Positions 6,179-46,653 of a stretch of 59,585 bases of DNA are shown here, in pieces; positions within the stretch are counted from its first letter, which is position 1, and each line of letters begins with the position of its first letter. The stretch is taken from IMG/VR virus record IMGVR_UViG_3300023213_000518, positions 1 through 59,585 of that record. The stretch is one strand, 5' to 3'. This stretch comes from a virus. Its lineage: Duplodnaviria; Caudoviricetes. The notes under the pieces were generated by a model, which saw only the letters and a program-made list of their open reading frames with translations, made no database searches and was not told the origin of the DNA. Both the position numbers and the translations under genes were made by a program.

Positions 6179-6230
6179 TACATCCTCCTCATAAATTTGG
6201 GTATTCTTGGCATACTCCTTACCCACATTA

Positions 6231-6260
6231 ATTATAGAAAACCCTTATTTTGCATGTCAA
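6231..6260 (-). promoter_or_regulatory. sigma70-type promoter TTGACA-N18-TATAAT
   Basis: perfect -35 (6255-6260) and -10 (6231-6236) in an intergenic gap. Confidence 0.85.
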
Positions 6261-6336
6261 GTACTATTTTCTAATTCTTTGTTACGAGGAATCGCTATAG
6301 GCGAAACTAAACCGAATGACCAAAAACGACAGTTTA

Positions 6337-6732: not shown

Positions 6733-7199
6733 TTCTCCCCCTCAGGCAAATACAAATAGTCAAGCTTGTACTTCAACTTCCCTGTATTGATAAAATTATA
6801 GATAGCACTCATAACAGTCGGCTTCAAAGCCTCAGGATGATTTTTTTGCATCTCGATGCAAAGCTCTCTTTTCGTCGGGCCCCTCGGAGAATGGTCAGCA
6901 GTAGAACACCATTCCGTCGTCTCAAGAATTTTCTGAACAACAGGAAACCACAAAATTCTACCTCTTCTACTACTATTTCTTTCAACAACAGGTCTATCTA
7001 CTTTCTTAGCAAATTCACCAATAGGCTTCTGAATGAGGTTCAAAGTACTTTGCAACTGCTCTACGACAACATCCCACCTATCAGCTTCAGACGAAGCAAG
7101 TACCGCTTGACGACGAAATTCAAGAGCATTTCTACGAGCTTCAGCTAGGGAATCATGCAACGTTTCGTTTGGCCTGTTTTCAACTATCGGAACGCCCAT
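6729..7199 (-). CDS. hypothetical protein (coiled coil plus winged-helix-like C-terminus)
   Basis: 156-aa ORF overlapping both neighbours. Confidence 0.55.
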   Translation of the reverse strand: MGVPIVENRPNETLHDSLAEARRNALEFRRQAVLASSEADRWDVVVEQLQSTLNLIQKPIGEFAKKVDRPVVERNSSRRGRILWFPVVQKILETTEWCSTADHSPRGPTKRELCIEMQKNHPEALKPTVMSAIYNFINTGKLKYKLDYLYLPEGEK

Positions 7200-10029
7200 C
7201 CTGAACCTCCACAGTACTCACTCTATTCTTCTTTCGAATAACAAGATGTCTGGCACCAGCAAGTTCAGAAAGTATGGCTTGATTATGTGTCACAACAAAC
7301 ACAGACCCGAATTTTGTTGCTGCCTCTTTTAATCCTCTAGCGAAAGTTCTTGCAGCCAAGGGGTCAAGACCCTCACCTGGTTCATCCAATATCAAGAGAT
7401 TAGTCTGCGGTGCGACATGACGCAAAGCAAAGCTAGTAATCAAAGAAGCAATCCTGATTTCGCCTTGCGACTGGTCGGATACTTCAGATCCACCATTTAC
7501 ATTTACAACACGCACATCAGATTCGCCATTCTCATCAACACTGAAAACAACCTGTATCTCTTTCTCGGAAAACATCTGAGAGTAATAAGCCGACGCTCTG
7601 TTCAACAAAGGACAAAGCTGGGCGTTGAGAAAAGCAGGCATACCTTTTCTGGAAAAAGCCGCGACACAATATTCATAAACAGGTAGTGACTTTCGGGCTT
7701 TTTCAACTTTCGTCAAAGCAAGATTCACCAGATCACGAGACCTCGCCAAAATCTTTTTCATAGACTGTATTCTTGACGACTGAATCTCAGCGACTCGCAA
7801 AGAGGCTTTGGCTGTTGCCAACTCCTCAACCGCTTCCCGTATCCAATCTTCTAGCTCTTCTTCACCAGCTGTTTCATCAGCAATCTTTTTCCGAATCTTC
7901 GGAAGCATAGCTACACAGATAGCCGACTTATCAACTAAAGCTTTTTTTTCAGCATTCAACTTCGACAAAGAAAGATTCAAACGCTCAACAACAGAATCCA
8001 TCTGCTCTCTGTCAATCGGCTGTTCACAGGTAGGGCACTCTTGCGACTGTAGATTGGAAAACTTAATCAACTTGGACCCAATGGAAGATATCCTACCATT
8101 CACCTCAGCAACCCTAAGCTCAATGGCATGATTCTTACTAACAATCTGTTCGTAATGCTCACTCAAAAACTTTGTTTTAGCAACACCACGAGCTTTCACT
8201 TGAATGAATTTCTTTTTCTTGAGTGTAATCTCTTCGACTTTCTTCGCCAACTCAGTCTTCAACTCTTCGACGTTAGGCGTTTCTTTTTGTAATAACAACA
8301 ACTCGTTGGAATGCTCTTCCATTCGCACAGCTTCCAACTCCCACAAATGATGCAACTCCTGCTCTTTCCTTTTTGCAGCAGCAAAATCTTCTTTCACATC
8401 GACAAGAGCTTTTTCAAATCTATCAAGTCCCTGCAACCTTGACAAAAAACTTTTTCTTTCAGACTCAGTTCCCGTCAACATCAAATTCGTCTTTCGCTGA
8501 TCAACAAACATAGCACCAGACAAGGTCTCCCAAGTAAATCCTGTCAACTTTTCAATATGCTCTTGTATCTGTTCAGGTCTATTACCACCTGCTACTTCAA
8601 TACCACCAATCCACGCTCGAAGGACTCTAGGCTTCCTACCACGAACTACTCTACAAACGCGATTCTCAGAATCAATAAATTTTGTCGCGACATAACACTT
8701 ACAATCTTTCTTAGCCCATCTATACATCCAATGATCATATTTCTGGCCCTTGAACGTCGAACCAAACAAAGCTACAGCAGGCGGCGACAAAAAAGATGTT
8801 TTTCCTGAGCCATTTGATTTTCCTCTCCTATCCTCATTGATACCAGAAACCACAGTCAAGCCAGGCTCATATTTTATCTTCAATCGTTGGAAGCATAAAA
8901 AATTCTCTGCGACAGAGTCGATGAACTTTATTTTGTTTGTACGAACCTGAGCTCCAATAGCTACCAACCTTGACAACAGATAACTAGATGTCTTTTCCCG
9001 CTGTTGGACAAGTTCGCCTGGAAGAGTCTGTTCTAGATACATCTTTATTTTTTGCTCGTCAGAGTCTTGCGCCCTAAGCTTTACTTTCGTTTCTTGTACA
9101 GCTTCCAATTCAATAACAGGAACAATTTCAGCACCGGGATACTTTCTCTGTGCGACAAGCTCTTCTTTTCGCAAAACAGAAAAGATATCTGTCGAGCTAT
9201 TACAGGAGACATGGATGCGGACTTTTGCTCCTCGCCAATCTTTAGGCGAGGCTTCTCTGAAACCTGGCCACATTTCGTCAAGCATCCGAGGTATCTTGGA
9301 TAAGAGCCTCGTTACTTTTCTCGTCTCGTAATCAAACATCAAATAGCTTTTGATTTGATTTGATTCGCCCCAATCAGTAGCAAACGGTGACCCAACATAA
9401 TAGACGTTCTTAGAAACTTTCTGGGGCAGATGAATATGACCACCAACACAAACCAGATATTCTTCAGGATACAGATCGTCTACTGTCATGTCGGTTGTCG
9501 AGCTGGTTTTTACATTGTAACGAGCGAGATTCAAGTCACAATGGAATACCAGTACGACACCGTCGCTTTTGAATTTATGATTTCTAACGGCCCTAGCCAA
9601 ATCGTGAGCTTCTCTTTTCAACAACACAGTACTCTGCCTGAAAGGAAGAAAAGCTAACAACCCCCCAGCTTTACCACCGGTTACTCCTCCTGATGGTCTA
9701 ACTATTTTTGGCTCGTCAAAAGCCAGAGCACCAGCGTTACGAATTACTGCCAACCAGTTTTCTTTATCGGTATACAAACCAAACCTGTCGTGATTCCCAA
9801 GATTGAAAAATGGGGAAATTCCGTTTTGTCCATACTCTCTAACTATCTCAGAAATTTTATTGACCATTCGACCGTCAAGAGGATTGTACGGCCTCTTCAA
9901 GTCACCACAATGAACAACCGTGCGAACATCATACTGCTCACAATAAGACATAATCTCTCTATGTGCAGCAAAGCACAAATCAAGATTATCGAACTCAGCT
10001 TGCCAGTCGGCAGTAAAAATCACACGCAT
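7180..10029 (-). CDS. fused SbcD(Mre11)-SbcC(Rad50) nuclease/ATPase
   Basis: phosphoesterase motifs FTADWQ, GD, GNHD, GHIH, YVGSP; Walker A NGSGKTS; Zn-hook CPTC; signature SQGE; Walker B LILDEP; VTHN. Probable start MRVIFTAD. Confidence 0.9.
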   Translation of the reverse strand: MRVIFTADWQAEFDNLDLCFAAHREIMSYCEQYDVRTVVHCGDLKRPYNPLDGRMVNKISEIVREYGQNGISPFFNLGNHDRFGLYTDKENWLAVIRNAGALAFDEPKIVRPSGGVTGGKAGGLLAFLPFRQSTVLLKREAHDLARAVRNHKFKSDGVVLVFHCDLNLARYNVKTSSTTDMTVDDLYPEEYLVCVGGHIHLPQKVSKNVYYVGSPFATDWGESNQIKSYLMFDYETRKVTRLLSKIPRMLDEMWPGFREASPKDWRGAKVRIHVSCNSSTDIFSVLRKEELVAQRKYPGAEIVPVIELEAVQETKVKLRAQDSDEQKIKMYLEQTLPGELVQQREKTSSYLLSRLVAIGAQVRTNKIKFIDSVAENFLCFQRLKIKYEPGLTVVSGINEDRRGKSNGSGKTSFLSPPAVALFGSTFKGQKYDHWMYRWAKKDCKCYVATKFIDSENRVCRVVRGRKPRVLRAWIGGIEVAGGNRPEQIQEHIEKLTGFTWETLSGAMFVDQRKTNLMLTGTESERKSFLSRLQGLDRFEKALVDVKEDFAAAKRKEQELHHLWELEAVRMEEHSNELLLLQKETPNVEELKTELAKKVEEITLKKKKFIQVKARGVAKTKFLSEHYEQIVSKNHAIELRVAEVNGRISSIGSKLIKFSNLQSQECPTCEQPIDREQMDSVVERLNLSLSKLNAEKKALVDKSAICVAMLPKIRKKIADETAGEEELEDWIREAVEELATAKASLRVAEIQSSRIQSMKKILARSRDLVNLALTKVEKARKSLPVYEYCVAAFSRKGMPAFLNAQLCPLLNRASAYYSQMFSEKEIQVVFSVDENGESDVRVVNVNGGSEVSDQSQGEIRIASLITSFALRHVAPQTNLLILDEPGEGLDPLAARTFARGLKEAATKFGSVFVVTHNQAILSELAGARHLVIRKKNRVSTVEVQDGRSDS

Positions 10030-15081: not shown

Positions 15082-17868
15082 CTAAGCAGCCAAATCTTTA
15101 CGAACCTGCTCTTCTAGCTCAGCATTGAACTTCTTATTCTTCTCACACCATCCTTGCAGAAACTCAGCGACATCACCACCCTCATAATCTTTCATTACGC
15201 CCAAACGATATCCAGCCTTCCCTTCGACTTGTAGACCAATACGCCAATTCACTTCAGGCCACCAGATCTTTATTCTACTCAACGTCTCATCGGTTAACAA
15301 ATTCACACCTTGACGAAAAGCCGTTGGCAAATTCACCAGCTTTACAAAAGCATACAGAGCATCATGTATCTCCATACACAATCTGAGAAGCTGATCAAAT
15401 GCTTTGTGGTTCAAGCGCAAAGCAGCCATAGCAATCAGCATCAACTGATGAGCAGTCCCTTGAATGGGAGTATTCATAGACTGATTTTTCCAGAAGGAGC
15501 TTCTATCGTTGTCATAAGGTGAAATTTCGCGCTTGAAATGGAACAAAGTTTCTACATAACCAGTCTGTTCAGCCGACTGAACCATAGCATCCATGAAAGG
15601 CTTTACCATCTTGAATCGTTCAAAATATTTTTTATGCCATCTATATACTTCGTCTTTAGATGGTGGAGCAATCCCAAGCGTCTTAGCGTCAGACAGTATA
15701 TGTAGATACAGATTCTCTGGTACTAATCCGTCCACAATTCCAAAATGCAACCCCTTGATCACAGTACGTATAGCTCTATCTTTCTTTATCTTCTCAACCG
15801 GTATACCCGTCAACAAATGTCCAACAGCAGAATGTAGGTCGTACTTCGACAACGAAGCTTGAATGAGAAGCGGATCACCCGACATTTGCGCCAGAATCCG
15901 CATCTCCAATTGGCTATGGTCAAAACCTAGAAATACATCCGTATCACCATATTTCTTAAGTAGCCGCCCAATCGACATTCCTCCAAGCCAATCAGCATAC
16001 AAAGCTCGCCACGACAAATCAGAAACCAACATGCATTCTATTGCTGGGTCACCATCTATGTTTTGGAGATTAACAAGACCTGTTTCTTCTTCATCACCTT
16101 TCTTGGATCCACCACTAGACAAACGTCCAGTAGCGGTACCTGTTATCCACCACCTCGTCCGAACCCTACCACCATAGAGTTCAGCCGACCTTTTGTAACC
16201 ATTCATATACGTCGATTCTTTTTTACCTAAACGACGACGCTCAGACACAAGACCCGGAGCTTTATGGCATTTCTCAAGAATCTCCATCGTCTCTTTCGAC
16301 GTGTCTAGCTTTCCATCGTGTTGCTTCAACCACTCTTCAGGCAAAAATCTCTGCAACTTCAACCTGTCATACAAAAACTCATAGACTTGCTTCGGAGAGT
16401 TAGCATTGAATCCATCTACACCAGAGAGTTTTTCTAAACGATGATCGATGGTGTTCAAACGTTTTGGTATCCAACTCTCCAAAAACGTAAAATGTTTGGC
16501 ATCGAAGATTGGACCCCGACTATGCATACCATCCAACACTGCGCCAGCATGAATGAACACTTGCATCAAAGAGTAGTCGACTTTTTTCTTCGTCGTAAGC
16601 TCGATACGTTTCGTCAAGTCACAATCAGCACCATTATACACTATCAAAACTTTTTTTGGAACGTTGTATGGATTCCAAATTTTCGTTTTCTTATCTTCGT
16701 AGTACGGCTGTATCATATCCTTATAGCCTGCAAAGGACGGAAACCTCGACTCAGCTATAGCAGCCAACCCGTAAGCGTATCGTGAAGAATAAGCAATATA
16801 CTCACCGTAGTTTGTATCAAAATCAAAACCACGCATCCTGATACCAAGAAGCTGCCTGAACTTCTTTTCGTCAGTACAGCCGTAGTGTAAAGCTTTTTTT
16901 ATCTCAGGGTCGCTGATGACAGCTTGAAAGAATTTCTTAACGGTAGGTTTGTTGCTCTCATCAACCTCAGGATGGTCATAAAAGACAACTCTGGCTTTTC
17001 CTGGTTTATAGCAAAAGCCCGCACAAACCATTACCTCTTTACTTTTTTTATTATGACCATTCTCTACGTCAACAGTGATACGAACTCCAGCTCTAGCAGC
17101 AAGCTTCAATTCACCGAAAAGAGTTCTTAGACTTTTAGCTGAAGCAACTTCTTTGTAATCCTGCGATTCAACAAACGAAAAACGAGACGTACTAACACCA
17201 TCAACGCATTCTTTAGCCGATTTCAACGTAGCTCTGAACTGCTCAAGCTTAGACCTTGCAGCGCCTCTCAAAAAATAGGCAGGATGATAAGTGCAATACA
17301 CCCACGCGTTCAGTCTTTCTATCCACTTGGCTTTCTCACCTTTCTTGAAATCTTTTCCCAGCAAAGCCTTCGCAGCAAAGTTTCCAAATATCAAGTGAAC
17401 CTTGGCCTTGCCAGCATTTCTTTTGAGAGCTTCTTCATTGTAGATAGAACAGCAATGGATAACGATTTTATCAGGCTCGCCATCAACTTCAACCTCTATT
17501 CCATCAGACAAGATTATCTTCGGTGTTCTGCACCTCACACAATTTTGTATGTCACAATCAGAACGTTTGATGCCTACAGCTTCCAATTCTCTCCAAAGAA
17601 GCTTTCCCGACCTGCCCAAGAATTCTTGTCCAAGCTCATTTTCTACCTTACCCGGATTCTGGCCCCACACCATTATCTTTTTTCCAGTAACGTACTCCAA
17701 CCTCTTCACTTTCTTAATACCAACAACGTTGTTTTGTGGACAAAAAGAACATCCTCTTTGAATATCAACTTTCGAAGCTCTAGCGATACGTTTGGTCAAG
17801 GCCTTCTTTGCAGCCTTAGCTTTCAGGCTACCAGCAGGCTCAATATTAAATAGCATACCATCAGGCAT
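15082..17868 (-). CDS. polA: family A DNA polymerase with N-terminal UDG-like domain and 3'-5' exonuclease
   Basis: UDG-like GQNPG..E, F.GRSG, N.VRC, YHPAY; exo DVE...YNGAD; TGRLSS, NLQN, motif A DHSQLEMR, motif B R...K...FG, motif C IHDA. Confidence 0.92.
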   Translation of the reverse strand: MPDGMLFNIEPAGSLKAKAAKKALTKRIARASKVDIQRGCSFCPQNNVVGIKKVKRLEYVTGKKIMVWGQNPGKVENELGQEFLGRSGKLLWRELEAVGIKRSDCDIQNCVRCRTPKIILSDGIEVEVDGEPDKIVIHCCSIYNEEALKRNAGKAKVHLIFGNFAAKALLGKDFKKGEKAKWIERLNAWVYCTYHPAYFLRGAARSKLEQFRATLKSAKECVDGVSTSRFSFVESQDYKEVASAKSLRTLFGELKLAARAGVRITVDVENGHNKKSKEVMVCAGFCYKPGKARVVFYDHPEVDESNKPTVKKFFQAVISDPEIKKALHYGCTDEKKFRQLLGIRMRGFDFDTNYGEYIAYSSRYAYGLAAIAESRFPSFAGYKDMIQPYYEDKKTKIWNPYNVPKKVLIVYNGADCDLTKRIELTTKKKVDYSLMQVFIHAGAVLDGMHSRGPIFDAKHFTFLESWIPKRLNTIDHRLEKLSGVDGFNANSPKQVYEFLYDRLKLQRFLPEEWLKQHDGKLDTSKETMEILEKCHKAPGLVSERRRLGKKESTYMNGYKRSAELYGGRVRTRWWITGTATGRLSSGGSKKGDEEETGLVNLQNIDGDPAIECMLVSDLSWRALYADWLGGMSIGRLLKKYGDTDVFLGFDHSQLEMRILAQMSGDPLLIQASLSKYDLHSAVGHLLTGIPVEKIKKDRAIRTVIKGLHFGIVDGLVPENLYLHILSDAKTLGIAPPSKDEVYRWHKKYFERFKMVKPFMDAMVQSAEQTGYVETLFHFKREISPYDNDRSSFWKNQSMNTPIQGTAHQLMLIAMAALRLNHKAFDQLLRLCMEIHDALYAFVKLVNLPTAFRQGVNLLTDETLSRIKIWWPEVNWRIGLQVEGKAGYRLGVMKDYEGGDVAEFLQGWCEKNKKFNAELEEQVRKDLAA

Positions 17869-26855: not shown

Positions 26856-27027
26856 TTTCTTTCTCGCTGTTCATGAGGAACCTTTCAACGATATCCCAAA
26901 ACATCGAATCCGGTCTAAGTCTGTAAGTCGCCAGCAAAATTCCGAAAAGCATATTCGCTGCTACTTGCGTCAGCTCCGACATAACTGCAGCAGCCAAAAC
27001 CTGACAATCTTTCGACGTTCTTTTCAC
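26827..27027 (-). CDS. hypothetical protein
   Basis: GTGA-coupled 66-aa ORF. Confidence 0.45.
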   Translation of the reverse strand: MKRTSKDCQVLAAAVMSELTQVAANMLFGILLATYRLRPDSMFWDIVERFLMNSEKENARTKISLR

Positions 27028-27236
27028 CCAGCACTCTCAACAACAAGATAGCCAAGATTGGAGATATGCGTTCTACCTTCGTGTACGAACTTTACAGCAG
27101 CGATTCCAACCGTAACGTTAACACACCCCGTATACTCGGCGAAGATATGCGAATTATTAGTACCCTCTCTTGAGGAATTGTTGAAAAGAGTAACATTCCA
27201 CTTAACATTACCATCCAACTCATAAGGCTCGTCCAC
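27024..27236 (-). CDS. hypothetical protein
   Basis: 70-aa ORF directly after helicase stop. Confidence 0.5.
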   Translation of the reverse strand: MDEPYELDGNVKWNVTLFNNSSREGTNNSHIFAEYTGCVNVTVGIAAVKFVHEGRTHISNLGYLVVESAG

Positions 27237-27237
27237 G

Positions 27238-28581
27238 TTAAACCTCGTCTTCCTGAAACTTTACAAGCTTGGCCATCGTTGCATCACGGTCATAAAAAAC
27301 CGACTCTTCTTTTTTCATCATGATGTTACAACCAACTTTGGACCTGTCTGACCTATGACTGTCAACGTACAGATAACAACTATCATCACCCCAGTCACCA
27401 GCCCCTAGGCCAAGAACCAAATGGGCCTTTCTAACTTTACCTATTGCATCAGCTATTTTACCACCAGAGATTATTTTTACAGTCTGTGTATCTCGTCCCG
27501 TCTGTGACGCCGTCCAGCCAATCAACTGATGCCGTCCAACAAAAGACCTATATTCAGCATAAACGTCGGCCATCCTTTCGTGTTTTTCTTTTTTCTTGTC
27601 AGGCGGCACAAGCTCATCGTCATAATCAACTATAACGAAGTCTGGAGTAAACCCCATGTTTCTATCACGCTCAAACTGATCTTCTATTTTTCTGATCGAC
27701 ACTCCACCATCCGTACCATCATAGATTTTCAACTTCGTACGGATAGATTTTCTAACCCAAGCAAACCTCTGTCTGATTTTCTCTTCAGACTCATGCAAAG
27801 ATTTAATAGGTAGATTCGTAACACAAGCATCAAATCTGTCCTCAACGTCATCCAAAGGATCTTCCAGTGTCCAGTAACTACCGCGCAGGCCTTGCAGAAT
27901 ATAAGCGAAAGTCGTCCACTGCAAGAAAAGGCTTTTTCCTCTTTTCCACGGCGCCATAACCAACCCTATATGGCCTCTAGAAATGATGTGCACCAACTGA
28001 TCCAGTGGGTCGATAAGCAAAAAGGGGAACCTCTGACGACGGTACTGTATTCCCCTACGTGCTATTCTTTTTTCCAGTTCGTCCCAGTAATCCGACGTCC
28101 GAACGGAATTTTTGTAGTACTTCAATCCTTCCTGGCAGGTTTGTATCCAAGCGTCGTCAGTAAGCTTACCTTCCTGTTGCAAAGACATCAATTTGTCTAC
28201 AGCAGAAGCCTTGGCTTTTTCTCTTTTGAACTGAACGATTTTATTGCCAATAGCAGAAGCGGCTTTTAACGTTCCGTTCTGAGACAAACGCTCGATGTAC
28301 ATATCCAATCTGGCTTTTTGTTTCTGATCATTAACCGTCTCAATGAATTGGAGCATCTGAGACCGTAGCAACTTACCCATCGGGTCACGATAAAGGCGCC
28401 AGAATTCTATCGCTTCCTTTGCGACCCAATAACGCTCTCGGCTCTCCATCCTGTTTCGTGGCAGAAAGTCGTCAGGCTCAAGCATGGAGCCATAGTCACG
28501 TAAAAAATTTCTGTCATAAATCAGGAACTTGATTAGTTCGTCCTGAAAATCAGGATCTTCGAAATAGGAGCCCTGTTCCAT
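27238..28581 (-). CDS. dnaB: DnaB/gp41-like replicative helicase
   Basis: Walker A-like APWKRGKS, TLE, Walker B IVDYDD, WTASQ; near primase. Confidence 0.8.
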   Translation of the reverse strand: MEQGSYFEDPDFQDELIKFLIYDRNFLRDYGSMLEPDDFLPRNRMESRERYWVAKEAIEFWRLYRDPMGKLLRSQMLQFIETVNDQKQKARLDMYIERLSQNGTLKAASAIGNKIVQFKREKAKASAVDKLMSLQQEGKLTDDAWIQTCQEGLKYYKNSVRTSDYWDELEKRIARRGIQYRRQRFPFLLIDPLDQLVHIISRGHIGLVMAPWKRGKSLFLQWTTFAYILQGLRGSYWTLEDPLDDVEDRFDACVTNLPIKSLHESEEKIRQRFAWVRKSIRTKLKIYDGTDGGVSIRKIEDQFERDRNMGFTPDFVIVDYDDELVPPDKKKEKHERMADVYAEYRSFVGRHQLIGWTASQTGRDTQTVKIISGGKIADAIGKVRKAHLVLGLGAGDWGDDSCYLYVDSHRSDRSKVGCNIMMKKEESVFYDRDATMAKLVKFQEDEV

Positions 28582-28628
28582 TCGCAGGCCCGGATTACTT
28601 CAACGACGAAGTTAGTTCTTCAATCTGA

Positions 28629-28919
28629 TTACGCAGCCTTTCCAGAGCTTCTTGTTTTTGTTCCGGGCTGGCTGTGTTCGTGTTCCCTACCAGATTTATC
28701 GCCTTCTCTGCCAGCTCTTCTAATTCTTTCAGACTCGCCATATCTTTCTCTCCTTAAAACTTCTTGTGGGCTTTCACCGCTCAATAGAAACTCACTGAAG
28801 GATTTCGGTGTCTTACAAATCTCACAACCAACTCCGACTGCCGCCCAACAATTTCTGATACTCTTCCACACCAAAAGCCTGTGGCACTTCCTTCTAGGAC
28901 AATGAAGTTCTTTTGCCAT
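28629..28919 (-). CDS. Zn-finger-like hypothetical protein
   Basis: C....C and C..C; RBS GAGGT lies in the last degenerate array unit. Confidence 0.55.
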   Translation of the reverse strand: MAKELHCPRRKCHRLLVWKSIRNCWAAVGVGCEICKTPKSFSEFLLSGESPQEVLRRERYGESERIRRAGREGDKSGREHEHSQPGTKTRSSGKAA

Positions 28920-28924
28920 CAAGA

Positions 28925-29816
28925 CAACTACCTCACGTTATTCGGTACTCTCCCGCCTTTTGGTTCTTTTCAGCCCGTCGTTACAACTCCACTAATACAA
29001 ATCTTTCTATCGCTACGTTACCAGCCTTTATTCCCGAATCTTTCACAGCGCGCGATACAATCACTCTAGGTAAATTCTCTCCTGTTAGACGATACCATCA
29101 CTGCCTCCAAATCTTTCCGTAATATCGTTACAAACCACTTGGGCAAATCTTTCAAAGCCCCCGATACTTTCATCTCTCTTTTCTAATCTTTCAGGAGTCA
29201 CGATACTTGACCTGATTCGACGAATCTTTCGCTTTTTACGACACAAACAAGCCCCAAGCAAATCTCTCATAGATAACGATACACACTTCCAAGACGAATC
29301 TTTCTCATTTCAACGAAACAAACAAACCTTATCAAATCTTTCATCCGGAACGATACTAAACGCACTTATCGAATCTTTCTCAGAACACGAGACCTTCGCG
29401 GCCCTTCAAATCTTTTTGTGCTAGCATAGCAAACGAGACCTTTGAATCTTTCACTTCTCCAGATACATTCGTGCCTATCAAATCTTTCTTCTGACACGTT
29501 ACAAACATAGGTTACAAATCTTTCGTCTCGTATGGTACTACACGTTGCACGCGAATCTCTCACCTTTGCAGTTACAACTCCACCTGCAACGGAATCTTTC
29601 ATCATCTCCGTAACTAACTAGATATTGCGAATCTTTCGTCCTCTTCGACAAAATCATTTTTGCCAAATCTTTCGTCTCTCACAATACACTTCGCTCTTTT
29701 CAAATCTCTCGCGTCTTTCGAAACAAATCGTACATGACAAATCTTTCTCCATTCACGTTACAGATTTCCGAAAACGAATCTTTCTTTTCGATACACTTAT
29801 GCCCACCAAATCCGTC
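28925..29816. repeat. dual-motif interspaced array: 22 clear ~37-bp units plus degenerate end units (TIGR-like architecture)
   Basis: plus-strand unit CRAATCTTTC-N8-CGWTAC-N12-15; period 36-39 bp, mean 37.0 from 28998 to 29775; variable segments all differ. Confidence 0.93.
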
Positions 29817-29824
29817 TTGTTAAG

Positions 29825-30358
29825 TCACCAAGGAAAGCCTCTATACCGTCTACGACAGAGAATGCTGTTGCGTGAAATCAATTCCTGCTTTTGTTTTACA
29901 ATTTTCGCATAGGATTTCAGAAAAGAATTTATTTGGCCTGTTTCGACTTCGAGTTTTACCTGCTCGGAACCAAGCATGGCCAACTGTTCGTCTCTTTGTT
30001 TCTGCTTCCAATTCAATTCAAGCTCATCGTTGGGATAGCGCTTTTTTAGTTCCTGCTGAAGAACCGTCTCGGCATGCTGACCGGTCAGAGTCGAAAGACG
30101 GGCACCGAAAACAGGAACATGTTTTAGCTTTGGAGACATCAACCGTCGGTAGAAACTGACCAGTATCTGAACGACCTCGTCCAGCTCGACGTGGTACTTC
30201 TCAGCCCAAAGCTGAAAGACCAACAGACGAAGCTGGTCTTCAGGATTCCTCAACTTCCAGAGCTGACACTGGAAGTGTTTTTGCAAGGCTTTGTCCACAT
30301 CGTACTGGACGGCAAAAACTTTTCGCCTTAAAATCTTTTCTTCTTTACCTGTGTCCAT
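29825..30358 (-). CDS. array-adjacent hypothetical protein (177 aa)
   Basis: helical, basic C-terminus CRRRYRGFPW; stop codon 9 bp from array edge. Confidence 0.75.
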   Translation of the reverse strand: MDTGKEEKILRRKVFAVQYDVDKALQKHFQCQLWKLRNPEDQLRLLVFQLWAEKYHVELDEVVQILVSFYRRLMSPKLKHVPVFGARLSTLTGQHAETVLQQELKKRYPNDELELNWKQKQRDEQLAMLGSEQVKLEVETGQINSFLKSYAKIVKQKQELISRNSILCRRRYRGFPW

Positions 30359-30628
30359 ATATGTATATAGATAGTATCAGTTCAATTATACATATCTTTT
30401 AGGCGGCCAAGCTTTCTGACCTCAAACGGGCCGTCCTGTTCCAGTACTCATATTGCCTAAACTTCTGATACAAAGACTGTCTCTGTGTATTGGTGAAGGC
30501 CACACCCAGCATAATCTAAAACATCTTTTTCTCCCCATCGTTTCAAGCTACGGTTATAGCAATCAACTTTCATGTCCATGATGTAAACGCGAGGCTGTTT
30601 CAGCCTACGAGTTTTCTTTTTGGCCATT

Positions 30629-32218
30629 TTAGGCAACAGCCTCCTCTTTCACAGACAACTTATCGATCAGCTTTTTCAGCTCTAGTTCGGCTCTGTCAAA
30701 GATGTACGATGGGTTCATCAGATAACTGGCACGACCTGAGACGATTTTCCTACTCTTCAAGGCAGCTCTACGGTTTCTGGCAGCCATTTCAAACCGGTGC
30801 GTTCCTTCTCCGTTTGGAGACTTATCGGAAATGTCAAAGTAGAGAAGGCCACTCTTTCCTTCACACATTCGGACGCCGCGACCGTACTTCTGCACGGCGT
30901 CGTTTTTCGAACGCATTGCAGCAGCATCGATGATGACGTCAACTATTTTTATGTCTATTCCTTTTTTGAAAACTTTGTTGGTAATAATCAGACGAACGTC
31001 ACCTTCTTCGAATTGCTTTTTTGAGCTAAGACGCTCATCAACCTTCTTTTGGCCAGAGATGACTCTGTGGTCAACGTCACTTAGAGAGCTGTGTAACAGC
31101 TCGATGTGCTTTAGACGTTCAACCAACACAATGACGTGTTTGTCTCTTTTGATAGCCTCACGCACAAGACTGCAGACCAGATTCAATCGTTTTTTATTGT
31201 GTACGATGGCAGAGGCATATTCTTTTTGAGCCTTACCCATGAAAAAGCCTCTGGTCTTTTGAAAATCGTTTTCGAAGTCAACAAACACAGCCAAACCCGG
31301 AGACAGAAAACCTTCTTGTACGCCTCTCTCAAGGGCGTATTCGAAAATCACAGGGCCACACAAGTTAAAGGCTTGGAGCCTTACACGTGTCTTTCTCAGT
31401 TCGAGGGTGGCCGTCAGGCCAAATACGAGAAGAGGATTTATGGAAGCAACGGTCTGGAAATTTCTACGGTTCATTGCCAGATGAACTTCATCTATTACCA
31501 TAACAGCAAGCTTGGAAGACCAAGGACGGAACTTACTATCGTTTCTATGCAGATGCATAGTCTGGACGGTTGCGACTGTAACCCGTTTCGGGTCAAAGAC
31601 ACCCTTACCGATTTGTCCTACGTCTTCACCCAAAACTTTCGACAATTCGGCTTGTGCTTGTTTCAAAAGAGTAAGTTCGTCGACGATGAAAACACACTGT
31701 CCATCAATACGACTGAAATACATTCCAGCGATGTAGGTCTTCCCCGTGCCAGTAGAGTTGAGAACCAGACCACCACTTTTGACACGCAACATTTGTGCCA
31801 AGCACTCCATTTGATACGGTCTATCCGAAACAACTCCCATCGGTTTTATTTTTGGTGGCTGGCGGAAATCACGAATCATGAAAACGCAATCGGCCTCTTT
31901 TTCAAGCTGTTCCCGCATAGCGAGGAACAAGCCAGACCCCAGAGTGTCTCTCTTCAGCATCTTTATGTAACCATCCCACCCAACCCAAATCTGTTCACCA
32001 AACGTTGACGAGGCAGGATTCTTGTCTAGTTCGTAATGGCCGTACTTGTCTTTCACGAATTCCCAGCCATCGACACGAAACTTCAACTTTTCAACAAGCT
32101 TTACATAAGGATACGGTCGGACGAACAATGCAGTCCGATTTCGAAGAACGACTCCGACTTGTTCCGCCACGGCGTCTTCCTTTTCCAGCGGCTTCTTCCT
32201 ACCCGTGGCCGCCCACAC
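30629..32218 (-). CDS. superfamily 2 DExH helicase (UvsW/Res-like)
   Basis: RPYQ, STGTGKT, DEVH, TAT, GIDI, QKYGRGVR; start may be the GTG of VAEQV. Confidence 0.9.
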   Translation of the reverse strand: MWAATGRKKPLEKEDAVAEQVGVVLRNRTALFVRPYPYVKLVEKLKFRVDGWEFVKDKYGHYELDKNPASSTFGEQIWVGWDGYIKMLKRDTLGSGLFLAMREQLEKEADCVFMIRDFRQPPKIKPMGVVSDRPYQMECLAQMLRVKSGGLVLNSTGTGKTYIAGMYFSRIDGQCVFIVDELTLLKQAQAELSKVLGEDVGQIGKGVFDPKRVTVATVQTMHLHRNDSKFRPWSSKLAVMVIDEVHLAMNRRNFQTVASINPLLVFGLTATLELRKTRVRLQAFNLCGPVIFEYALERGVQEGFLSPGLAVFVDFENDFQKTRGFFMGKAQKEYASAIVHNKKRLNLVCSLVREAIKRDKHVIVLVERLKHIELLHSSLSDVDHRVISGQKKVDERLSSKKQFEEGDVRLIITNKVFKKGIDIKIVDVIIDAAAMRSKNDAVQKYGRGVRMCEGKSGLLYFDISDKSPNGEGTHRFEMAARNRRAALKSRKIVSGRASYLMNPSYIFDRAELELKKLIDKLSVKEEAVA

Positions 32219-32234
32219 GTATATTTTACAATTT

Positions 32235-32741
32235 TCAGTTGGCTGTCCAGTTATGAATTACTCTAGCCTCCATACCTACAGAAGCACCGAATAATGCACG
32301 ACCAGACCAGCGAATCGCTTTAACACGACTATGCTCGGTCTTATACAACAAAAAACTTTCCCCTACAAAGATCGCTGCACCCGTTAAAGCAAGACGTTTA
32401 TCGGACGGATACCTTCCATACAACCAAGTAGTAGCCTCTTCCGTCGTTCCAAAGCATATCGTCTTTTTCTGATGAAAAGAATACGAACAGCCAGCATGAT
32501 GTACACCATTCGCAGTCAGAGCATAATCGGCTGAATACAGCCCCGCCAATACCAGTGATTCAATAACAAAGTTCCGTTTCGAATGTTCAGGAACTTTAAC
32601 GACTGGCTTCACTTTCGAATACTCGAACTTTGAACCTTCAAAATTTACTTTCGGCTTCGGCGTATCTGGCAGCTCATCGGCAAAAGTGACTACAGCTGAA
32701 AAGAGAGACATCAAAAACAAAACCAAGGTCTTCATGTTCAT
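32235..32741 (-). CDS. secreted/membrane protein, LPDxPKPK paralog 1
   Basis: signal peptide, LPDTPKPK, hydrophobic helices; GGAGG RBS. Confidence 0.7.
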   Translation of the reverse strand: MNMKTLVLFLMSLFSAVVTFADELPDTPKPKVNFEGSKFEYSKVKPVVKVPEHSKRNFVIESLVLAGLYSADYALTANGVHHAGCSYSFHQKKTICFGTTEEATTWLYGRYPSDKRLALTGAAIFVGESFLLYKTEHSRVKAIRWSGRALFGASVGMEARVIHNWTAN

Positions 32742-32753
32742 ATCCTCCAAACC

Positions 32754-33236
32754 TCAAAATATAAAAGAAGGACAACTTTTCGTTCCATGTGGATCTAGCT
32801 TAGAGTTACAAACAGCAAGATACGAATGCTGTGCCACTACACTAGAAATCCACAAACGACCTGCCAGCCTAACATATTTATTCTTGTTATGTTCTGTCAG
32901 GTAAAACACACCGACCTGTGTGGCAAAAAATCCTAGATTCGTTACAGCCTGCCTCGATGCGGATGGATGTTTCCCGAATACTGGATTCAATTCTTTCCCA
33001 CCATTATTAAGCAGGATTCGCGTCGTAACTGCATCAGCCGTCTTGGATGCAGCCAAAGCAAAAACCCCAGCCAGAAACACACGGCGGTTTAGTACGGACC
33101 TTTCAACCAATTGCTGACGTGTAACATTCAGAACTTCTGGCTTAGGCTTTGGCGAATCAGGCAAAGCCTTCTCGTCATTAGCCACAACTACTCCTACTAA
33201 CAACAAATTCAAAAACAACAAACATATAACTCTCAT
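32754..33236 (-). CDS. secreted/membrane protein, LPDxPKPK paralog 2
   Basis: signal peptide, LPDSPKPK, AD..TT...GG.ELNP motif; GGAGG RBS. Confidence 0.7.
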   Translation of the reverse strand: MRVICLLFLNLLLVGVVVANDEKALPDSPKPKPEVLNVTRQQLVERSVLNRRVFLAGVFALAASKTADAVTTRILLNNGGKELNPVFGKHPSASRQAVTNLGFFATQVGVFYLTEHNKNKYVRLAGRLWISSVVAQHSYLAVCNSKLDPHGTKSCPSFIF

Positions 33237-44100: not shown

Positions 44101-46653
44101 CTGCCTTTTCTTCTGTTCGGCTAGCTGTGTCTCGGTTAACCGTACCTGAGTCTGAGCCCCAGACTTATACTTCAATTCTTCAATGGATATGAAAGTAACC
44201 AACTCATCCTGCAACAAAGCCTTTCTTCTAGTAACATATTCCGACAACGTAATTTCACCATTCTTTTGTGCATCCTCCAAAGCGGATTGCTCTTGCTTCA
44301 GTTCTTCCTGACGAACTTCAAGAATGGATTGGGCCCTAATCTGAGTAGCTTTTTGTTCGTCTTCGTCTTGCTGACGGTCGATAGCAGCAATCTCTTTTGC
44401 AGCAGCAGAACGAGCCAAAACTTTCCTTGACTCGGTAGTCGTATCAAGATCTTTTACTTCCAAAGCGAACTCTGGCCTCTGTATCTGACCAGAAGCTAGT
44501 TGGAACCTCAATTCTTTCAGTCGTGCTTCACGTTCCTGTTCTATCTCTCTCAGAGTATCATTAAGCTCTTCTTGACGATACTGTTTCTTCTTAGCAACAT
44601 ACTCAGCAAGAATCTCTAGTCCAGTTCTGTACGATTCTTCATTCGCATCTTTTTGAGCCTGCAAGCTCTGCTTCTGAATATCAAGAAGTCCTTTTGCGGT
44701 ATCTTGCTCAAGCTTCATCCGCAACTGAGCCAGTTTGCGCTGCAGAGCTATATTCTCGTCTGTGTCAGTTATGATACCCGTTCCCGCCACTCCACCAAAA
44801 GGTACATTCGAAGGAGTCTGTATTCTTTTGAAAGTCTGCTCCAATGAAACCAGCTCATCTTCCATGCTACTAAGATTGGATTTCGACTTTTCAAACAACG
44901 AATCTTTCTTCCCTATACCAAACCATTCTTTACCATAAAAGGAAGGAATAGCCTTGAGCTGGTCTAGCGCACTAGCATCTTTGAGTGAATTAAGAAACTG
45001 TTGTTCTCTCTGCAACGACCGAAACGTATCTTCAAACGAAGGTGGCTTCAAGGTAGCCAAAGCATCTACTACTTCTTTTATCGTGTACTTGACCAGAACA
45101 AAGGTCTCTGCTATCGTCTTCGCCAAGCCTGTTATTGTCGTCAAACGACTAACAAAATCATCAGACAACCTATTGACCTGTCCGAAAGACGCAATAACAA
45201 ACCCTAGCTTGATTGCCTCAAGAGCCTGAACTATCAACGTCTTCAAACTAGAAACAACAGAGATAAGGGCTTTCACCCCCTCTATTGCAGGAACTAGGAA
45301 TACTCCTAATTTTCTTCCAAGCTCTTCTATCAAGTTCCCTTGAGACGACAAAAAATTCAACCCACTAGCAATTACTGCAAACAACTGCTTCATACCTTCA
45401 GACTGTACAAACCCTCTGGCAAAACTTTGGAACAATCTTGTCGTAACTACACTTATTTGATTAAGCTTCTCAGTAAAAGTCTCAGCAGGCTCACCTACAG
45501 CTTCGAATCTTTTCGTTATGGCCTCCAGAGCCTTGTTGAATTCAGCCTGCTTTCTGGCAGCATCAGACATCGTTGCCGACAGCCCACGGACAGCCAAATC
45601 CTCTCTATTTAAGCCCGTAATACGGCCCAAGGCCATGAATCTACCGGTGGCTAGCCCCTGATTAAGGGCATTTATGGCCTGTGTGGCATCTCGGCCCTGG
45701 GCGCGTGCCAGACCCACTGTGGCGCGTGTCAAAGCCGTCATTTGTTCCTCTGTGGCCTTGACACCCGACTGCATGAATTTATTAGCAGTCCTGTAGAGCT
45801 CTACATCGTTTACAAGGTTATGTGTAGCTGTCCGTAGGTCATCGAGAAACTTTGTGGCGTCGATGCCTTTTATCTGTGACAATTTTTCAAACTGTTCTCT
45901 CACTTGCTGTAATGGGCCACTAGATTCAATAAACCTCTTCATCTTGACTGCCAGACCTTCTAGTACATCAGAAAGAAGTGTTCCAGCAGCAACAGCCCCT
46001 GTTAAAATACCACCAAAAGAACTACCACCAAGACCAAACAAACCACCAAAGAATCCTCCACCTCTTCCGCCACCACCTCCTCCACCACTAACACGGCCAC
46101 CACCAATACCAGCAGATAGTCTTTGTTGTGCCAACTGCAATTTAAGTGCGGCCGTCTGGGTCTGTATCTGCGCCGTTGTCGCTCTCTGTTGAGCAGTAGT
46201 CGCCGCAGCTGCTGCTGTTACTTGTTGCTGCTGAGCTTTCTGTTGAATCAGAGCTGCAGTTGCGGCCTGATACTGAACTTTCGTTGTAGCAGCTGTTGCT
46301 GCCAACAACTGCTGTTGGACTTTTTGTTGAATCAAAGCAGCAGTCGTGGCCTGATGCTGTGCTTTTGTTGTAGCAGCAGTAGCAGACAAAAGTTTCTGTT
46401 GTTCAACCTGATTAGCTACCTGTCTAGTGGCCTTAACCCGTTCATTAACTTCAGAACGAATATCGCCAATCGACAATCTGATTTGTTTCAGTCTGTACTC
46501 AAGCCATTGTTTGTCATCTGACCGAGCAGCAGAATCTGACTTTCTCACTTCACTAACTTGCTGCAAAATATCAGCGAGAGCGGCTTTCCAGCTACTAGTG
46601 TCAACTTTCCATTTCAAAAGTACTTGTTTTACTTCCTGCGAAGTAGCTGGCAT
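41176..46653 (-). CDS. tape measure protein
   Basis: 1825 aa, Ala/Gln/Gly helical, AGPIGAAAGAAIG; follows chaperone pair. Confidence 0.85.
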   Translation of the reverse strand: MPATSQEVKQVLLKWKVDTSSWKAALADILQQVSEVRKSDSAARSDDKQWLEYRLKQIRLSIGDIRSEVNERVKATRQVANQVEQQKLLSATAATTKAQHQATTAALIQQKVQQQLLAATAATTKVQYQAATAALIQQKAQQQQVTAAAAATTAQQRATTAQIQTQTAALKLQLAQQRLSAGIGGGRVSGGGGGGGRGGGFFGGLFGLGGSSFGGILTGAVAAGTLLSDVLEGLAVKMKRFIESSGPLQQVREQFEKLSQIKGIDATKFLDDLRTATHNLVNDVELYRTANKFMQSGVKATEEQMTALTRATVGLARAQGRDATQAINALNQGLATGRFMALGRITGLNREDLAVRGLSATMSDAARKQAEFNKALEAITKRFEAVGEPAETFTEKLNQISVVTTRLFQSFARGFVQSEGMKQLFAVIASGLNFLSSQGNLIEELGRKLGVFLVPAIEGVKALISVVSSLKTLIVQALEAIKLGFVIASFGQVNRLSDDFVSRLTTITGLAKTIAETFVLVKYTIKEVVDALATLKPPSFEDTFRSLQREQQFLNSLKDASALDQLKAIPSFYGKEWFGIGKKDSLFEKSKSNLSSMEDELVSLEQTFKRIQTPSNVPFGGVAGTGIITDTDENIALQRKLAQLRMKLEQDTAKGLLDIQKQSLQAQKDANEESYRTGLEILAEYVAKKKQYRQEELNDTLREIEQEREARLKELRFQLASGQIQRPEFALEVKDLDTTTESRKVLARSAAAKEIAAIDRQQDEDEQKATQIRAQSILEVRQEELKQEQSALEDAQKNGEITLSEYVTRRKALLQDELVTFISIEELKYKSGAQTQVRLTETQLAEQKKRQDIENQLVKLQSNIPELQLRQAEVQSQRQLQFLEAERRMAQSFGPAGRGFVFGSADQTKATENLISQYEKLIKVWTTMMSSGLFTGDEFLKLADKIAQANAEIVRLQESIVGVRGVLGSGFGQIAEALSSIGLKERVQTYNIQTRLEGKVTVPVLTQLRDALASASKIFDAQEAFSKWATQAGLGARGIKSPMDELHEQLQKSFDLFGAGVGTAKSVVDSFSSALGSAVTQVQQFATSISGVKSPQEEQPSGSIPSLIARPSQEPSTSSLGKELPESSTGVAGPASSAEQYDVLSQLLLNTPSFIYETMLQQLGAAATNLPVTAAPVAKEEKNYVERPKEEPTAAQKIQQETPEQVLPNVINSLVASLGSVSDSLTAFVDGLFPKQPKQEVVGQQEEQRQRSGRQQQTQPAPDAFSLLTNSVLSLNSTLSSFAGRQQFSEQPQPATQPSGGTPQPASNVVVSVPGLGAVNPSGATTRQATISPVEAVYSSFSDLVKHIGDVTKNLQDLTKSIAGTIQQIGAFASALQGQGGPLQAGITGAISGQSIGQGIGKVVSGIGSLFGASLSFAGPIGAAAGAAIGLFGGIFGGKARKAAEDIAKTITDQITVVMRQFATQQTTLAQTIQQLQEERQQAITQLSGKKGGRDQLNQILPQLDQQITQLEAQQAQILKQLRENLQIVSSPTAFQPLLQSVQAIIDQYKQYINAGGNVVEANQFLKDSFANLRVTNLATLNQDEQDAINNALQYNDLLLQRQQYLAQTNQQIQDIIAAGAPTRMRTQAQTKLAQIEQIELQRNQQLLQMNEQISVAGYRLKSEEKIFNLAQDRVGLETQLAQLQMQTIDQDIARIAALKELINVMSGTQGSALVAAIIAALSGAPTSSTAGLLALLQALGLAPPSAPVTPPAVGPIPPVPPGVGRGGTGVPPGVGRGFTQNSAAASVAGVSPVESPSSVLDAAFQALYANRGRQGFGGFNGELG

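What the first reader, a model, noticed from the sequence alone, without database searches (positions are those of the whole stretch)
28925..29816. Non-coding array of ~37-bp dual-spacer units with no Cas or Tas gene: candidate new guide-RNA system
Seen: motif A (CRAATCTTTC; 14 exact, 8 variant) starts at 28998, 29035, 29071, 29108, 29144, 29183, 29221, 29259, 29295, 29333, 29370, 29407, 29443, 29479, 29515, 29552, 29591, 29628, 29664, 29701, 29738 and 29775. It is followed by a variable segment that is exactly 8 nt in 20 of 22 units, then motif B (CGWTAC; 11 exact, most others 1-2 mismatches), then a second variable segment of 12-15 nt. Periods of 36-39 bp break any reading frame. Variable segments are all different, unlike a satellite or classical iteron. 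Known: TIGR arrays use ~36-nt units (edge repeat, spacer A, loop repeat, spacer B) read by Nop-domain Tas proteins; CRISPR repeats are longer and single. Inference: this has TIGR-like geometry, but I recognise no box C/D-like motif and no Nop, Cas or reverse transcriptase gene in 59 kb. It may encode processed ~37-nt two-part guides for a different effector.
Basis: partly seen in the sequence, partly recalled or inferred. Interest (0 to 1): 0.95.

Follow-up and report, generated by a model that had tools for sequence, protein, structure and literature searches.

The report
TIGR guide-RNA array far from tas
This non-coding repeat array in a phage replication gene cluster is a diverged member of the recently described TIGR guide-RNA arrays, unusual only in that no gene for its Tas partner protein lies anywhere in the 59.6 kb that was sequenced.

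Summary
About 24 units of 36-39 bp fill the gap 28925-29816, and the 10-nt motif A is exact 14 times in the array against 0.5 expected in the whole window.

It is not a new kind of system. On the minus strand, which carries all the genes, each unit reads: edge repeat GAAAGATTYG, an 8-nt spacer, loop repeat G(N3-6)GTAWCG, an 8-nt spacer. This is the published TIGR dual-repeat geometry.

- The same two repeats flank a bona fide tas gene in another viral contig (L011; its protein matches solved TasR at E 5.7e-12).
- A repeat skeleton taken from tas-adjacent arrays hits the window 8 times, only in the array and only on the minus strand. Random sequence gives 0.08.

No Tas (Nop-type) gene is detectable in the window, although the same searches found Tas in control genomes. 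The record is only about 60% complete. A complete relative carries tas plus an array in the part that is missing here.

The neighbouring 177-aa protein is a conserved replication-module protein, also present in relatives that have no array. It is not the effector.

The rival readings (replication-origin iterons, a non-Nop effector) are now unlikely. It remains open whether the array uses a Tas encoded elsewhere in this phage or one supplied in trans.

The parts
28998..29816 (-). Core TIGR dual-repeat array. It has 22 units bounded by 23 edge repeats. Minus-strand reading: edge GAAAGATTYG (10 nt), spacer A (8 nt), loop G(N3-6)GTAWCG (10-13 nt), spacer B (8 nt). The first unit in sense order has a degenerate edge (29816-29807) and a spacer B shortened to 4 nt.
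   Evidence: TIGR skeleton hits on the minus strand only.
28925..28997 (-). Degenerate units at the 3' (sense) end of the array. They include a canonical-looking loop GAGAGTACCG at 28952-28943. Fainter remnants, such as GTGAGATTTG at 28825-28816, may extend further.
   Evidence: The only nhmmer hit of a profile built from tas-adjacent arrays falls here (28967-28932, minus strand, E 0.049).
29825..30358 (-). Gene for the 177-aa protein P0001, directly upstream of the array; its stop codon lies 9 nt before the first edge. It belongs to an uncharacterised all-helical family with a C-terminal basic stretch followed by a YRGNPW-like tail. It is part of the replication module and is context only, not the effector.
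   Evidence: Relatives have this gene but no array.
28595..28741 (-). Conserved 48-aa ORF with a Shine-Dalgarno-like site, directly downstream of the array. It has a homologue at the same place in L012. Context only.
28629..28922 (-). 97-aa ORF that overlaps the decayed end of the array. It has no counterpart in L012 and no family match, so it is probably not a gene.
27238..28581 (-). DnaB-like replicative helicase gene (context).
   Evidence: phrog_19, E 2.3e-31.
30629..32218 (-). SF2 (ResIII / Helicase_C, UvsW-like) helicase gene (context).

Best explanation
The region is a TIGR (tandem interspaced guide RNA) dual-repeat array of a diverged repeat type.

Inferred mechanism. It is transcribed from the minus strand together with the surrounding replication genes. 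It is cut within the edge repeats into RNAs of about 36-39 nt. Each RNA carries two 8-nt spacers and is bound by a dimer of a Tas (Nop-domain) protein. That protein is probably a nuclease-less TasA like P0155 of L011. The complex would be guided to DNA whose two strands match spacer A and spacer B side by side, leading to binding or repression rather than cleavage.

The tas gene is not in the window. It most likely lies in the roughly 40% of the genome that was not assembled.

Shown here: the architecture, the strand, the shared repeat type next to a real tas gene, and the absence of tas in 59.6 kb. Inferred: transcription, processing, the identity of the partner protein and the targets.
For: 1. 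Geometry. Units are 10 + 8 + (10-13) + 8 nt. The published definition is two alternating 8-12-nt repeats with 9-nt spacers and 36-nt units, with 16 nt of spacer in SpTIGR (PMC12045711, sections 4 and 6, read). I located SpTIGR in NC_020844 as AAGCGAGCCA + 8 + AAGACAACCA + 8.

2. Same repeats beside a real tas gene. L011 has GAAAGATTTG + 8 + GTTTGTTTCG + 8 upstream of a 312-aa gene, and decayed units downstream of it. Its product P0155 matches PDB 9mty_A at E 5.7e-12 and TasH at 0.0042. It matches SpTasH by BLASTP at 4e-08. It has 5653 relatives.

3. Family-wide repeat skeleton. 78 of 80 tas loci have a neighbouring 36-nt array of the type GA..GA..C[A/G]. A skeleton regex hits at least 3 times in 69 of 80 of those loci. 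It hits the window 8 times, all in the array and all on the minus strand. 200 random sequences gave a mean of 0.08 and a maximum of 1.

4. An intermediate form. L012 has the same edge repeat but a near-canonical loop, GAGAGTACCG.

5. Strand. The sense strand equals the gene strand in the window, L012 and L011. Edge position 9 is C (9 units) or T (11 units) opposite G1, which allows G-C or G-U pairing only in minus-strand RNA.

6. Plausible off-window tas. The record is 60% complete. The window is syntenic with about 109 kb through the genome ends to 62 kb of the complete relative G004. G004's tas (E 4.9e-129) and its roughly 24-unit array lie at 106.8-108.6 kb, in the part the window does not cover.

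7. No extended RNA structure, as expected for a dual-repeat array (z -1.17). No Rfam match.
Against: - No Tas is detectable in the window or in the 34.8-kb record of L012. The same searches found Tas in Salicola phage, G002 and G004.
- The literal box C 'CCA' is replaced by YG/CG.
- A profile built from tas-adjacent units found only one weak hit in the window (E 0.049).
- No minus-strand promoter or terminator was called, whereas published arrays usually end in a terminator.
- No paired-spacer target stood out above mis-paired controls in the window, G004 or four loci. There were 0 hits with at most 1 mismatch, and 4 against 3.4 with at most 2 mismatches.
- Only 1 of 3 near-complete relatives has tas.
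- Expression could not be tested.
Confidence: 0.78

Rival explanations
1. Orphan or hijacking array. The phage carries no tas gene at all. Its array is loaded by a Tas made by a co-infecting element or prophage, either to redirect that protein or to soak it up. This would parallel virus-borne mini-CRISPR arrays that lack cas genes (that parallel is recalled, not checked here).
For: No tas lies within 28.9 kb on one side of the array or 29.8 kb on the other. None is in L012's record. Two of three near-complete relatives lack tas. The array sits at the same tas-less site in two phages whose flanking proteins are only 56% identical. Its repeats are well kept: 14 exact edges.
Against: Both array-bearing records are fragments (60% and 29% complete). 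In 78 of 80 tas loci the array is next to tas. No orphan TIGR array turned up in my literature searches, so there is no precedent.
Confidence: 0.13
2. One reading: a new guide-RNA system read by a non-Nop effector encoded nearby, with the adjacent 177-aa protein P0001 as the obvious candidate.
For: P0001 lies 9 nt upstream of the array in the window, and its homologue lies upstream of the array in L012. It has no Pfam, PHROG or PDB sequence match and no PDB fold match.
Against: Family members in L016, L017 and L018 keep the same helicase / P0001 / DnaB synteny with no array in 3 of 3 loci. L011 has the same repeats next to tas, and none of the 7 L011 ORF products I tested matched P0001's gene in the window. 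hhalign of the family against SpTasH gave probability 0.4%. The repeats fit the Tas-array skeleton.
Confidence: 0.04
3. Replication-origin iterons. The motifs would be binding sites for an initiator, placed between the replication genes.
For: The array lies inside the replication module, between a helicase gene and the DnaB-like and primase genes. The region is non-coding.
Against: - The same repeats occur outside any replication context, next to tas in L011. Its neighbours are a VWA protein, an intein-bearing protein and a glycosyltransferase.
- Relatives with the same replication module have ORFs, not repeats, at this spot.
- There are 22-28 units with spacers of fixed 8-nt length, while the unit period varies from 36 to 39 bp, which breaks helical phasing.
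- The Y9 polymorphism is strand-specific and compatible with G-U pairing.
Confidence: 0.03
4. A decaying relic of a once tas-linked array that no longer does anything.
For: The 3' units are degenerate. No tas gene and no terminator were found.
Against: 14 of 22 edges are exact and both spacer lengths are held at 8 nt. A comparably long array of about 28 units is kept at the same site in a phage diverged to 56% protein identity.
Confidence: 0.02

Closest known systems
TIGR-Tas dual-repeat arrays (Faure et al., Science 2025, PMC12045711; sections 4-6, 8-10, 23, 24 and passages read). Examples: SpTIGR of Salicola phage CGphi29, and the array of G004.
   Same: Alternating edge and loop repeats of 10 nt, two 8-nt spacers and units of about 36 nt. 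There are tens of units, all spacers differ, and the array is carried by a phage. Edge and loop share boundary bases. The array points the same way as the neighbouring genes, and the RNA has no extended structure.
   Different: The repeat ends in YG/CG rather than CCA. The loop repeat varies from 10 to 13 nt. No tas gene lies within about 29 kb on either side. No terminator was found. The array is embedded in a replication module at a site conserved in two phages.
The TIGR-TasA locus of viral contig L011 (IMGVR_UViG_3300023213_000324), found here.
   Same: Practically identical repeats: edge GAAAGATTTG/CG and loop GTTTGTTTCG, with 8-nt spacers on the gene strand.
   Different: L011 has only about 5 + 3 units, and they flank a tas gene (P0155). 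Its gene neighbourhood is unrelated to the window: of the 7 L011 ORF products tested, only one gave a 31-aa match at E 0.004.
CRISPR arrays, including virus-borne mini-arrays without cas genes (the latter recalled, not checked here).
   Same: A repeat-spacer array that encodes guides. Arrays can sit without their effector gene and borrow it in trans.
   Different: CRISPR has a single repeat of 25-36 nt and one spacer of about 30 nt per unit. No cas gene and no CRISPR-like repeat are present here.
Iterons of plasmid and phage replication origins.
   Same: Short repeated motifs in non-coding DNA inside a replication gene cluster.
   Different: Iterons act as DNA and are usually fewer. They are not paired with a second alternating repeat at fixed 8-nt spacing. 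The motifs seen here recur next to tas, outside any replication context.

Membership tests
TIGR dual-repeat array | Two distinct alternating short repeats (8-12 nt) separated by short spacers of fixed length, giving a unit of about 36 nt repeated many times. | tested here: met
   Edge 10 nt, spacer 8 nt, loop 10-13 nt, spacer 8 nt. 22 core units of 36-39 bp.
TIGR dual-repeat array | Edge and loop repeats share start and end nucleotides (box D-like and box C-like) that covary between the two repeats. | tested here: met
   Both repeats read G1...G5...Y9-G10 on the minus strand. The skeleton from tas-adjacent arrays hits the array 8 times against 0.08 in random sequence. Caveat: I derived the skeleton by eye from the arrays.
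TIGR dual-repeat array | The literal motifs reported for TasR arrays: repeats start with UG and end with CCA. | tested here: not met
   Repeats end in TYG or WCG and start with GA or GT. The paper states that these motifs can diverge. Several tas-adjacent arrays end in CCG or TTA.
TIGR dual-repeat array | A tas gene (Nop / IS110-C-type domain) next to the array. | tested here: not met
   PF01798, PF02371, protein P0155 and Tas profile A5 gave 0 hits in the 59,585-bp record. Positive controls were hit. The record is about 60% complete.
TIGR dual-repeat array | The same repeat type is found beside a bona fide tas gene elsewhere. | tested here: met
   L011: the arrays flank P0155, which matches solved TasR at E 5.7e-12.
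TIGR dual-repeat array | The array ends with a truncated edge repeat and a rho-independent terminator. | tested here: not met
   No minus-strand terminator in 28400-30700. The array fades into degenerate units instead. G004 and Salicola arrays do end in terminator-like hairpins.
TIGR dual-repeat array | The array is transcribed and processed into unit-length (36-nt) RNAs bound by Tas. | not testable with these tools
   No sequencing run was listed for the region.
TIGR dual-repeat array | Spacers A and B pair with adjacent stretches on opposite strands of a DNA target. | tested here: inconclusive
   No hit with at most 1 mismatch. Hits with at most 2 mismatches equal the mis-paired controls in the window, G004, L011, L012, L016 and L018. 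Host genomes were not searched.
Replication-origin iterons | Repeats tied to the replication module and to its initiator. | tested here: not met
   3 of 3 relatives with the same module lack the repeats. The same repeats occur beside tas in a non-replication context.
CRISPR array | A single repeat of about 25-36 nt alternating with spacers of similar size, plus cas genes. | tested here: not met
   There are two 10-nt repeats and 8-nt spacers. The only Cas-related Pfam match among the 8 neighbouring proteins scanned was a sub-threshold Cas3-like_C_2 hit (18 bits against a cutoff of 27) on the SF2 helicase.

The most novel reading that the evidence does not exclude
The array is a genuinely tas-less TIGR array kept inside the replication operon of a phage lineage. 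It would work in trans, either by loading a Tas made by a rival phage or prophage and turning it on other targets, or by titrating that protein. It would be the first orphan TIGR array. Because no terminator separates it from the flanking genes, its processing could also split the replication-gene transcript.
Probability: 0.15. Interest if true: 0.7.

Novelty: new member of a known kind. Interest (0 to 1): 0.42.

Why it matters
TIGR-Tas systems were described in 2025, and their arrays have so far been catalogued only around tas genes. TIGRFinder was applied to tas loci (bioRxiv 10.64898/2026.09.09.750476, section 5, read).

This array shows three things:
- TIGR arrays can lie at least 29 kb from any tas gene.
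- They can occupy a conserved site in a replication module.
- Their repeat ends can drift from CCA to YG while keeping the edge/loop symmetry.

Searches centred on tas, or on the CCA motif, would miss such arrays. If a complete genome shows no tas gene, this would be the first case of a guide array borrowing its effector. If tas is simply off the contig, the finding is one more TIGR locus with an unusual layout.

Tried and rejected
Effector candidate P0001.
- A first AlphaFold model from 2 sequences was useless (pLDDT 47.9).
- A model from 149 sequences was good (pLDDT 93.5). Foldseek against the PDB gave 39 matches at E <= 10 and none at E <= 0.001; the best was E 1.6.
- The following searches gave nothing usable: phmmer and hmmsearch against PDB sequences, Pfam on all 149 members, PHROGs on all 149 and the ESM Atlas (best score 0.79).

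Search for relatives.
- The search for related loci with P0001 and with P0005 found none.
A sub-alignment, A4, gave 3 loci.
- The three-edge DNA pattern gave 15 stretches in viral contigs. Only L011 and L012 were arrays of this type. The three others I printed (L010, L013, L014) were plain tandem repeats.
80 loci were returned and all 80 were scored. I printed the 18 with at least 4 units and inter-unit identity of 0.75 or less. None had dual-repeat architecture.
- A stricter edge + loop + edge pattern found only L011 and L012 in viral contigs. In GTDB genomes it found one false positive, a coding repeat in a MAG.
- The P0001 family is absent from 8 of 8 other tas-bearing viral records that were searched. 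L150 was not held and so was not searched.

Other checks.
- nhmmer with a profile of 207 tas-adjacent units gave a single weak hit.
- The Rfam search gave 0 matches.
- The promoter and terminator scan called nothing on the minus strand. By eye, a TATAAT stands at 30390-30385 on the minus strand, upstream of P0001; this is unverified.
- The paired-spacer target search gave nothing above controls.
- BLAST of 27000-33000 and of the capsid-like protein against isolated phages gave no match.
- Sequencing runs: none was listed and no RNA holder was listed. This says nothing about expression.
- Supplements (table S1 and fig. S4 of PMC12045711, which list tas loci and repeat alignments) could not be seen. 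They may already contain this repeat type.
- Literature: a search for 'TIGR array' plus 'orphan' gave one unrelated paper. The words orphan, in trans, standalone and replication do not occur in the TIGRFinder preprint.

Full report
**What is there.** The window is a linear IMG/VR virus record of 59,585 bp, estimated about 60% complete. All long ORFs lie on the minus strand. Between the stop codon of a 177-aa gene (29825-30358) and a small conserved ORF (28595-28741) there is no convincing gene.

All 22 listed motif-A starts are present, spaced 36-39 bp apart. CRAATCTTTC is exact 16 times in the window, 14 of them in the array, against 0.51 expected from shuffles. Tandem Repeats Finder does not see a 37-bp repeat because the units differ too much. 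It reports only a 74-bp two-unit duplication at 29219-29356.

**Anatomy.** Column statistics sharpen the unit. On the + strand it reads: CRAATCTTTC, 8 variable nt, CGWTAC, 3-6 A-rich nt ending in C, then exactly 8 variable nt. On the minus strand, which is the gene strand, this becomes:
- edge GAAAGATTYG (10 nt)
- spacer A (8 nt)
- loop G(N3-6)GTAWCG (10-13 nt)
- spacer B (8 nt)

The length variation sits inside the loop repeat, and both spacers are held at 8 nt. Edge and loop share G1, G5, Y9 and G10. Edge position 9 is C in 9 units and T in 11. Opposite G1 this keeps a G-C or G-U pair only if the minus strand is the RNA.

A degenerate first edge lies at 29816-29807, 9 nt after the stop codon of the upstream gene. 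Two or three decayed units run down to about 28925. Spacers are all different: unit pairs share a mean of 4.4 of 16 positions. The sense RNA has no unusual secondary structure (z -1.17) and no Rfam match.

**Comparison with TIGR.** The defining paper describes two alternating 8-12-nt repeats, 9-nt spacers (16 nt of spacer in total in SpTIGR) and 36-nt processed RNAs. It also says that edge and loop share start and end motifs that may diverge but covary (PMC12045711, read).

The NAR 2026 paper names NC_020844 for the tasH gene. In that record I located the SpTIGR array: AAGCGAGCCA + 8 + AAGACAACCA + 8, directly after tasH. SpTasH is recognised by Pfam PF02371, not by PF01798. That told me which searches are able to find a Tas protein.

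**Independent link to Tas.** A DNA pattern of three edge motifs recovered two viral contigs with the same kind of array.

- L012 belongs to a relative of the window phage. Its P0004 is 56% identical to the 177-aa protein. It has the same gene order: SF2 helicase, P0001 homologue, array, small ORF, DnaB-like helicase. Its array has about 28 units with edge GAAAGATTCG and loop GAGAGTACCG or GAGTGTACCG.
- L011 is an unrelated phage. Units GAAAGATTTG + 8 + GTTTGTTTCG + 8 lie upstream of a 312-aa gene, and decayed units lie downstream of it. Its product P0155 matches the solved TasR-type chain 9mty_A at E 5.7e-12 and TasH at 0.0042. It matches SpTasH by BLASTP at 4e-08. It has 5653 relatives. Its alignment to TasR begins at TasR residue 125, so it has no room for a RuvC domain. 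By inference it is a TasA.

**The wider Tas family.** I fetched 80 tas loci of this clade. 78 of them have an adjacent array with a period of about 36 nt. Most of these arrays show two 10-nt repeats of the type GA..GA..C[A/G] separated by 8-nt spacers. Variants end in CCG, ACA, TCA or TTA.

A skeleton written from these arrays hits at least 3 times in 69 of the 80 loci. When loops of 10-13 nt are allowed, it hits the window 8 times, all inside the array and all on the minus strand. 200 random sequences gave a mean of 0.08. A plain nhmmer profile of 207 such units found only one weak hit (E 0.049), in the decayed tail. So the sequence resemblance to the commonest repeats is limited. The case rests on architecture, on the boundary bases and on the L011 and L012 links.

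**Is there a Tas here?** No. PF01798, PF02371, P0155 and a 39-sequence Tas profile all gave nothing in the six-frame translation of the record. The same queries hit Salicola phage, L011's record and G004. L012's record (29% complete) has none either.

The window is syntenic with the complete 118,881-bp relative G004 from about 109 kb, through the genome ends, to about 62 kb. G004 carries a tas gene (E 4.9e-129) followed by about 24 canonical units and a terminator at 106.8-108.6 kb. That lies in the part with no counterpart in the window. The window ends themselves show no array. Two other near-complete relatives (G003 at 91%, G009 at 100%) have no tas. So tas is accessory in this lineage. An off-contig tas is plausible but not shown.

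**The neighbouring 177-aa protein.** P0001 has no Pfam, PHROG or PDB sequence match. It belongs to a family with 251 representatives that share a conserved C-terminal basic stretch followed by a [YWF]R[GDN][NS]P[WFY] tail. It gives a confident all-helical model (pLDDT 93.5) with no significant PDB fold match. hhalign against SpTasH gave probability 0.4%.

In L016, L017 and L018 the family sits in the same helicase ... DnaB ... primase synteny. There, ordinary small ORFs occupy the place where the window has the array. It is therefore a replication-module protein, perhaps a helicase loader (my guess), and not an array-specific effector.

**Rivals.**
- Origin iterons are disfavoured. The same repeats occur next to tas outside any replication context. 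Relatives with the same replication module lack them. Spacer lengths are fixed while the period varies.
- A non-Nop effector is disfavoured for the reasons given for P0001.
- A tas-less array that works in trans cannot be excluded and is the most interesting open reading.
- A dead relic is unlikely, given 14 exact edges and a comparably long array at the same site in a phage diverged to 56% protein identity.

**Targets and expression.** I tested paired spacers in both adjacent opposite-strand arrangements, with a gap of 0-1 nt. This geometry follows the paper's statements that the spacers are interchangeable and that only a 1-nt gap is tolerated. There were no hits with at most 1 mismatch. Hits with at most 2 mismatches matched the mis-paired controls in the window, G004 and four loci. 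The paper itself notes that natural targets are hard to find.

Both spacers are mildly purine-rich, as they are in 1485 tas-adjacent units. No sequencing run was listed. No promoter or terminator was called on the minus strand. The array may therefore be co-transcribed with the replication genes; this is inference.

**Verdict.** This is a real, well-described array and a diverged member of the known TIGR dual-repeat family, not a new class. Its unusual features:
- the YG box-C variant
- the loop of variable length
- the conserved position inside a replication module
- the absence of tas within about 29 kb on either side

They make it a useful pointer that tas-centred catalogues miss some arrays. 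Confidence in the main reading (a TIGR array served by a Tas encoded elsewhere in this phage) is 0.78. The tas-less, trans-acting reading is given 0.13 among the rivals and 0.15 as the novel case.

Noticed in passing
window 29825-30358 (P0001); L012 7873-8397; L016 3995-4564; L017 3980-4555; L018 3890-4450: An uncharacterised protein family of about 180 aa with 251 representatives at 50% identity. Members are all-helical, and the confident model has no PDB fold match. The very C-terminus carries a basic stretch followed by a [YWF]R[GDN][NS]P[WFY] tail. In all 5 loci the gene lies between an SF2 helicase gene and a DnaB-like helicase gene. It may be a helicase loader or a docking factor.
   Followed up: partly
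L011 5990-9020: A TIGR-TasA locus with arrays on both sides of tas (P0155, 7951-8889). Between the upstream array and tas lie an unknown 370-aa ORF (6212-7324) and two small ORFs. The repeat type is GAAAGATTTG / GTTTGTTTCG, seen in 1 of the 80 tas loci examined (L147, the same locus as L011).
   Followed up: partly
L027 1477-3300 (G004 106.8-108.6 kb): A complete 118.9-kb phage with terminal repeats, related to the window phage. It carries a 309-aa tas gene, about 24 units (GAGCGAGCCA + 8 + GACAGCATCA-like + 8) and a terminator hairpin. This module lies next to the homologue of the window's portal gene (55874-57616) and of the adjacent 550-aa gene (57591-59243), which has no family match.
   Followed up: partly
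window 28629-28922: A 97-aa ORF with CxxxxC...CxxC cysteines overlaps the decayed end of the array and the start of the conserved 48-aa ORF. It has no homologue in L012 and is probably spurious.
   Followed up: partly
window 15082-17868: A family A DNA polymerase with an N-terminal uracil-DNA-glycosylase-superfamily domain in one 928-aa ORF.
   Followed up: no
window 46236-46391 and 46054-46105: An 84-bp tandem duplication and CCA/CCACC-rich short repeats inside the 1825-aa ORF. This is probably a repetitive structural protein.
   Followed up: no
window 59549-59585: The contig ends in a 12-bp tandem repeat (about 3 copies) inside the 3' end of an ORF. This may be where the assembly broke.
   Followed up: no
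window 29219-29356; L012 8615-8700 and nearby: Pairs of two-unit (74-bp) or four-unit blocks are recognisably similar. The arrays therefore seem to grow by local block duplication followed by point divergence, with decayed units at the sense 3' end.
   Followed up: partly
L233 (MAG contig DYSW01000009.1), last ~120 nt in array-sense orientation: The only GTDB hit to the strict edge + loop + edge pattern is a 36-bp coding repeat (ERFGRSEG-like) at the C-terminal end of a helicase-like ORF. It is not a TIGR array.
   Followed up: yes
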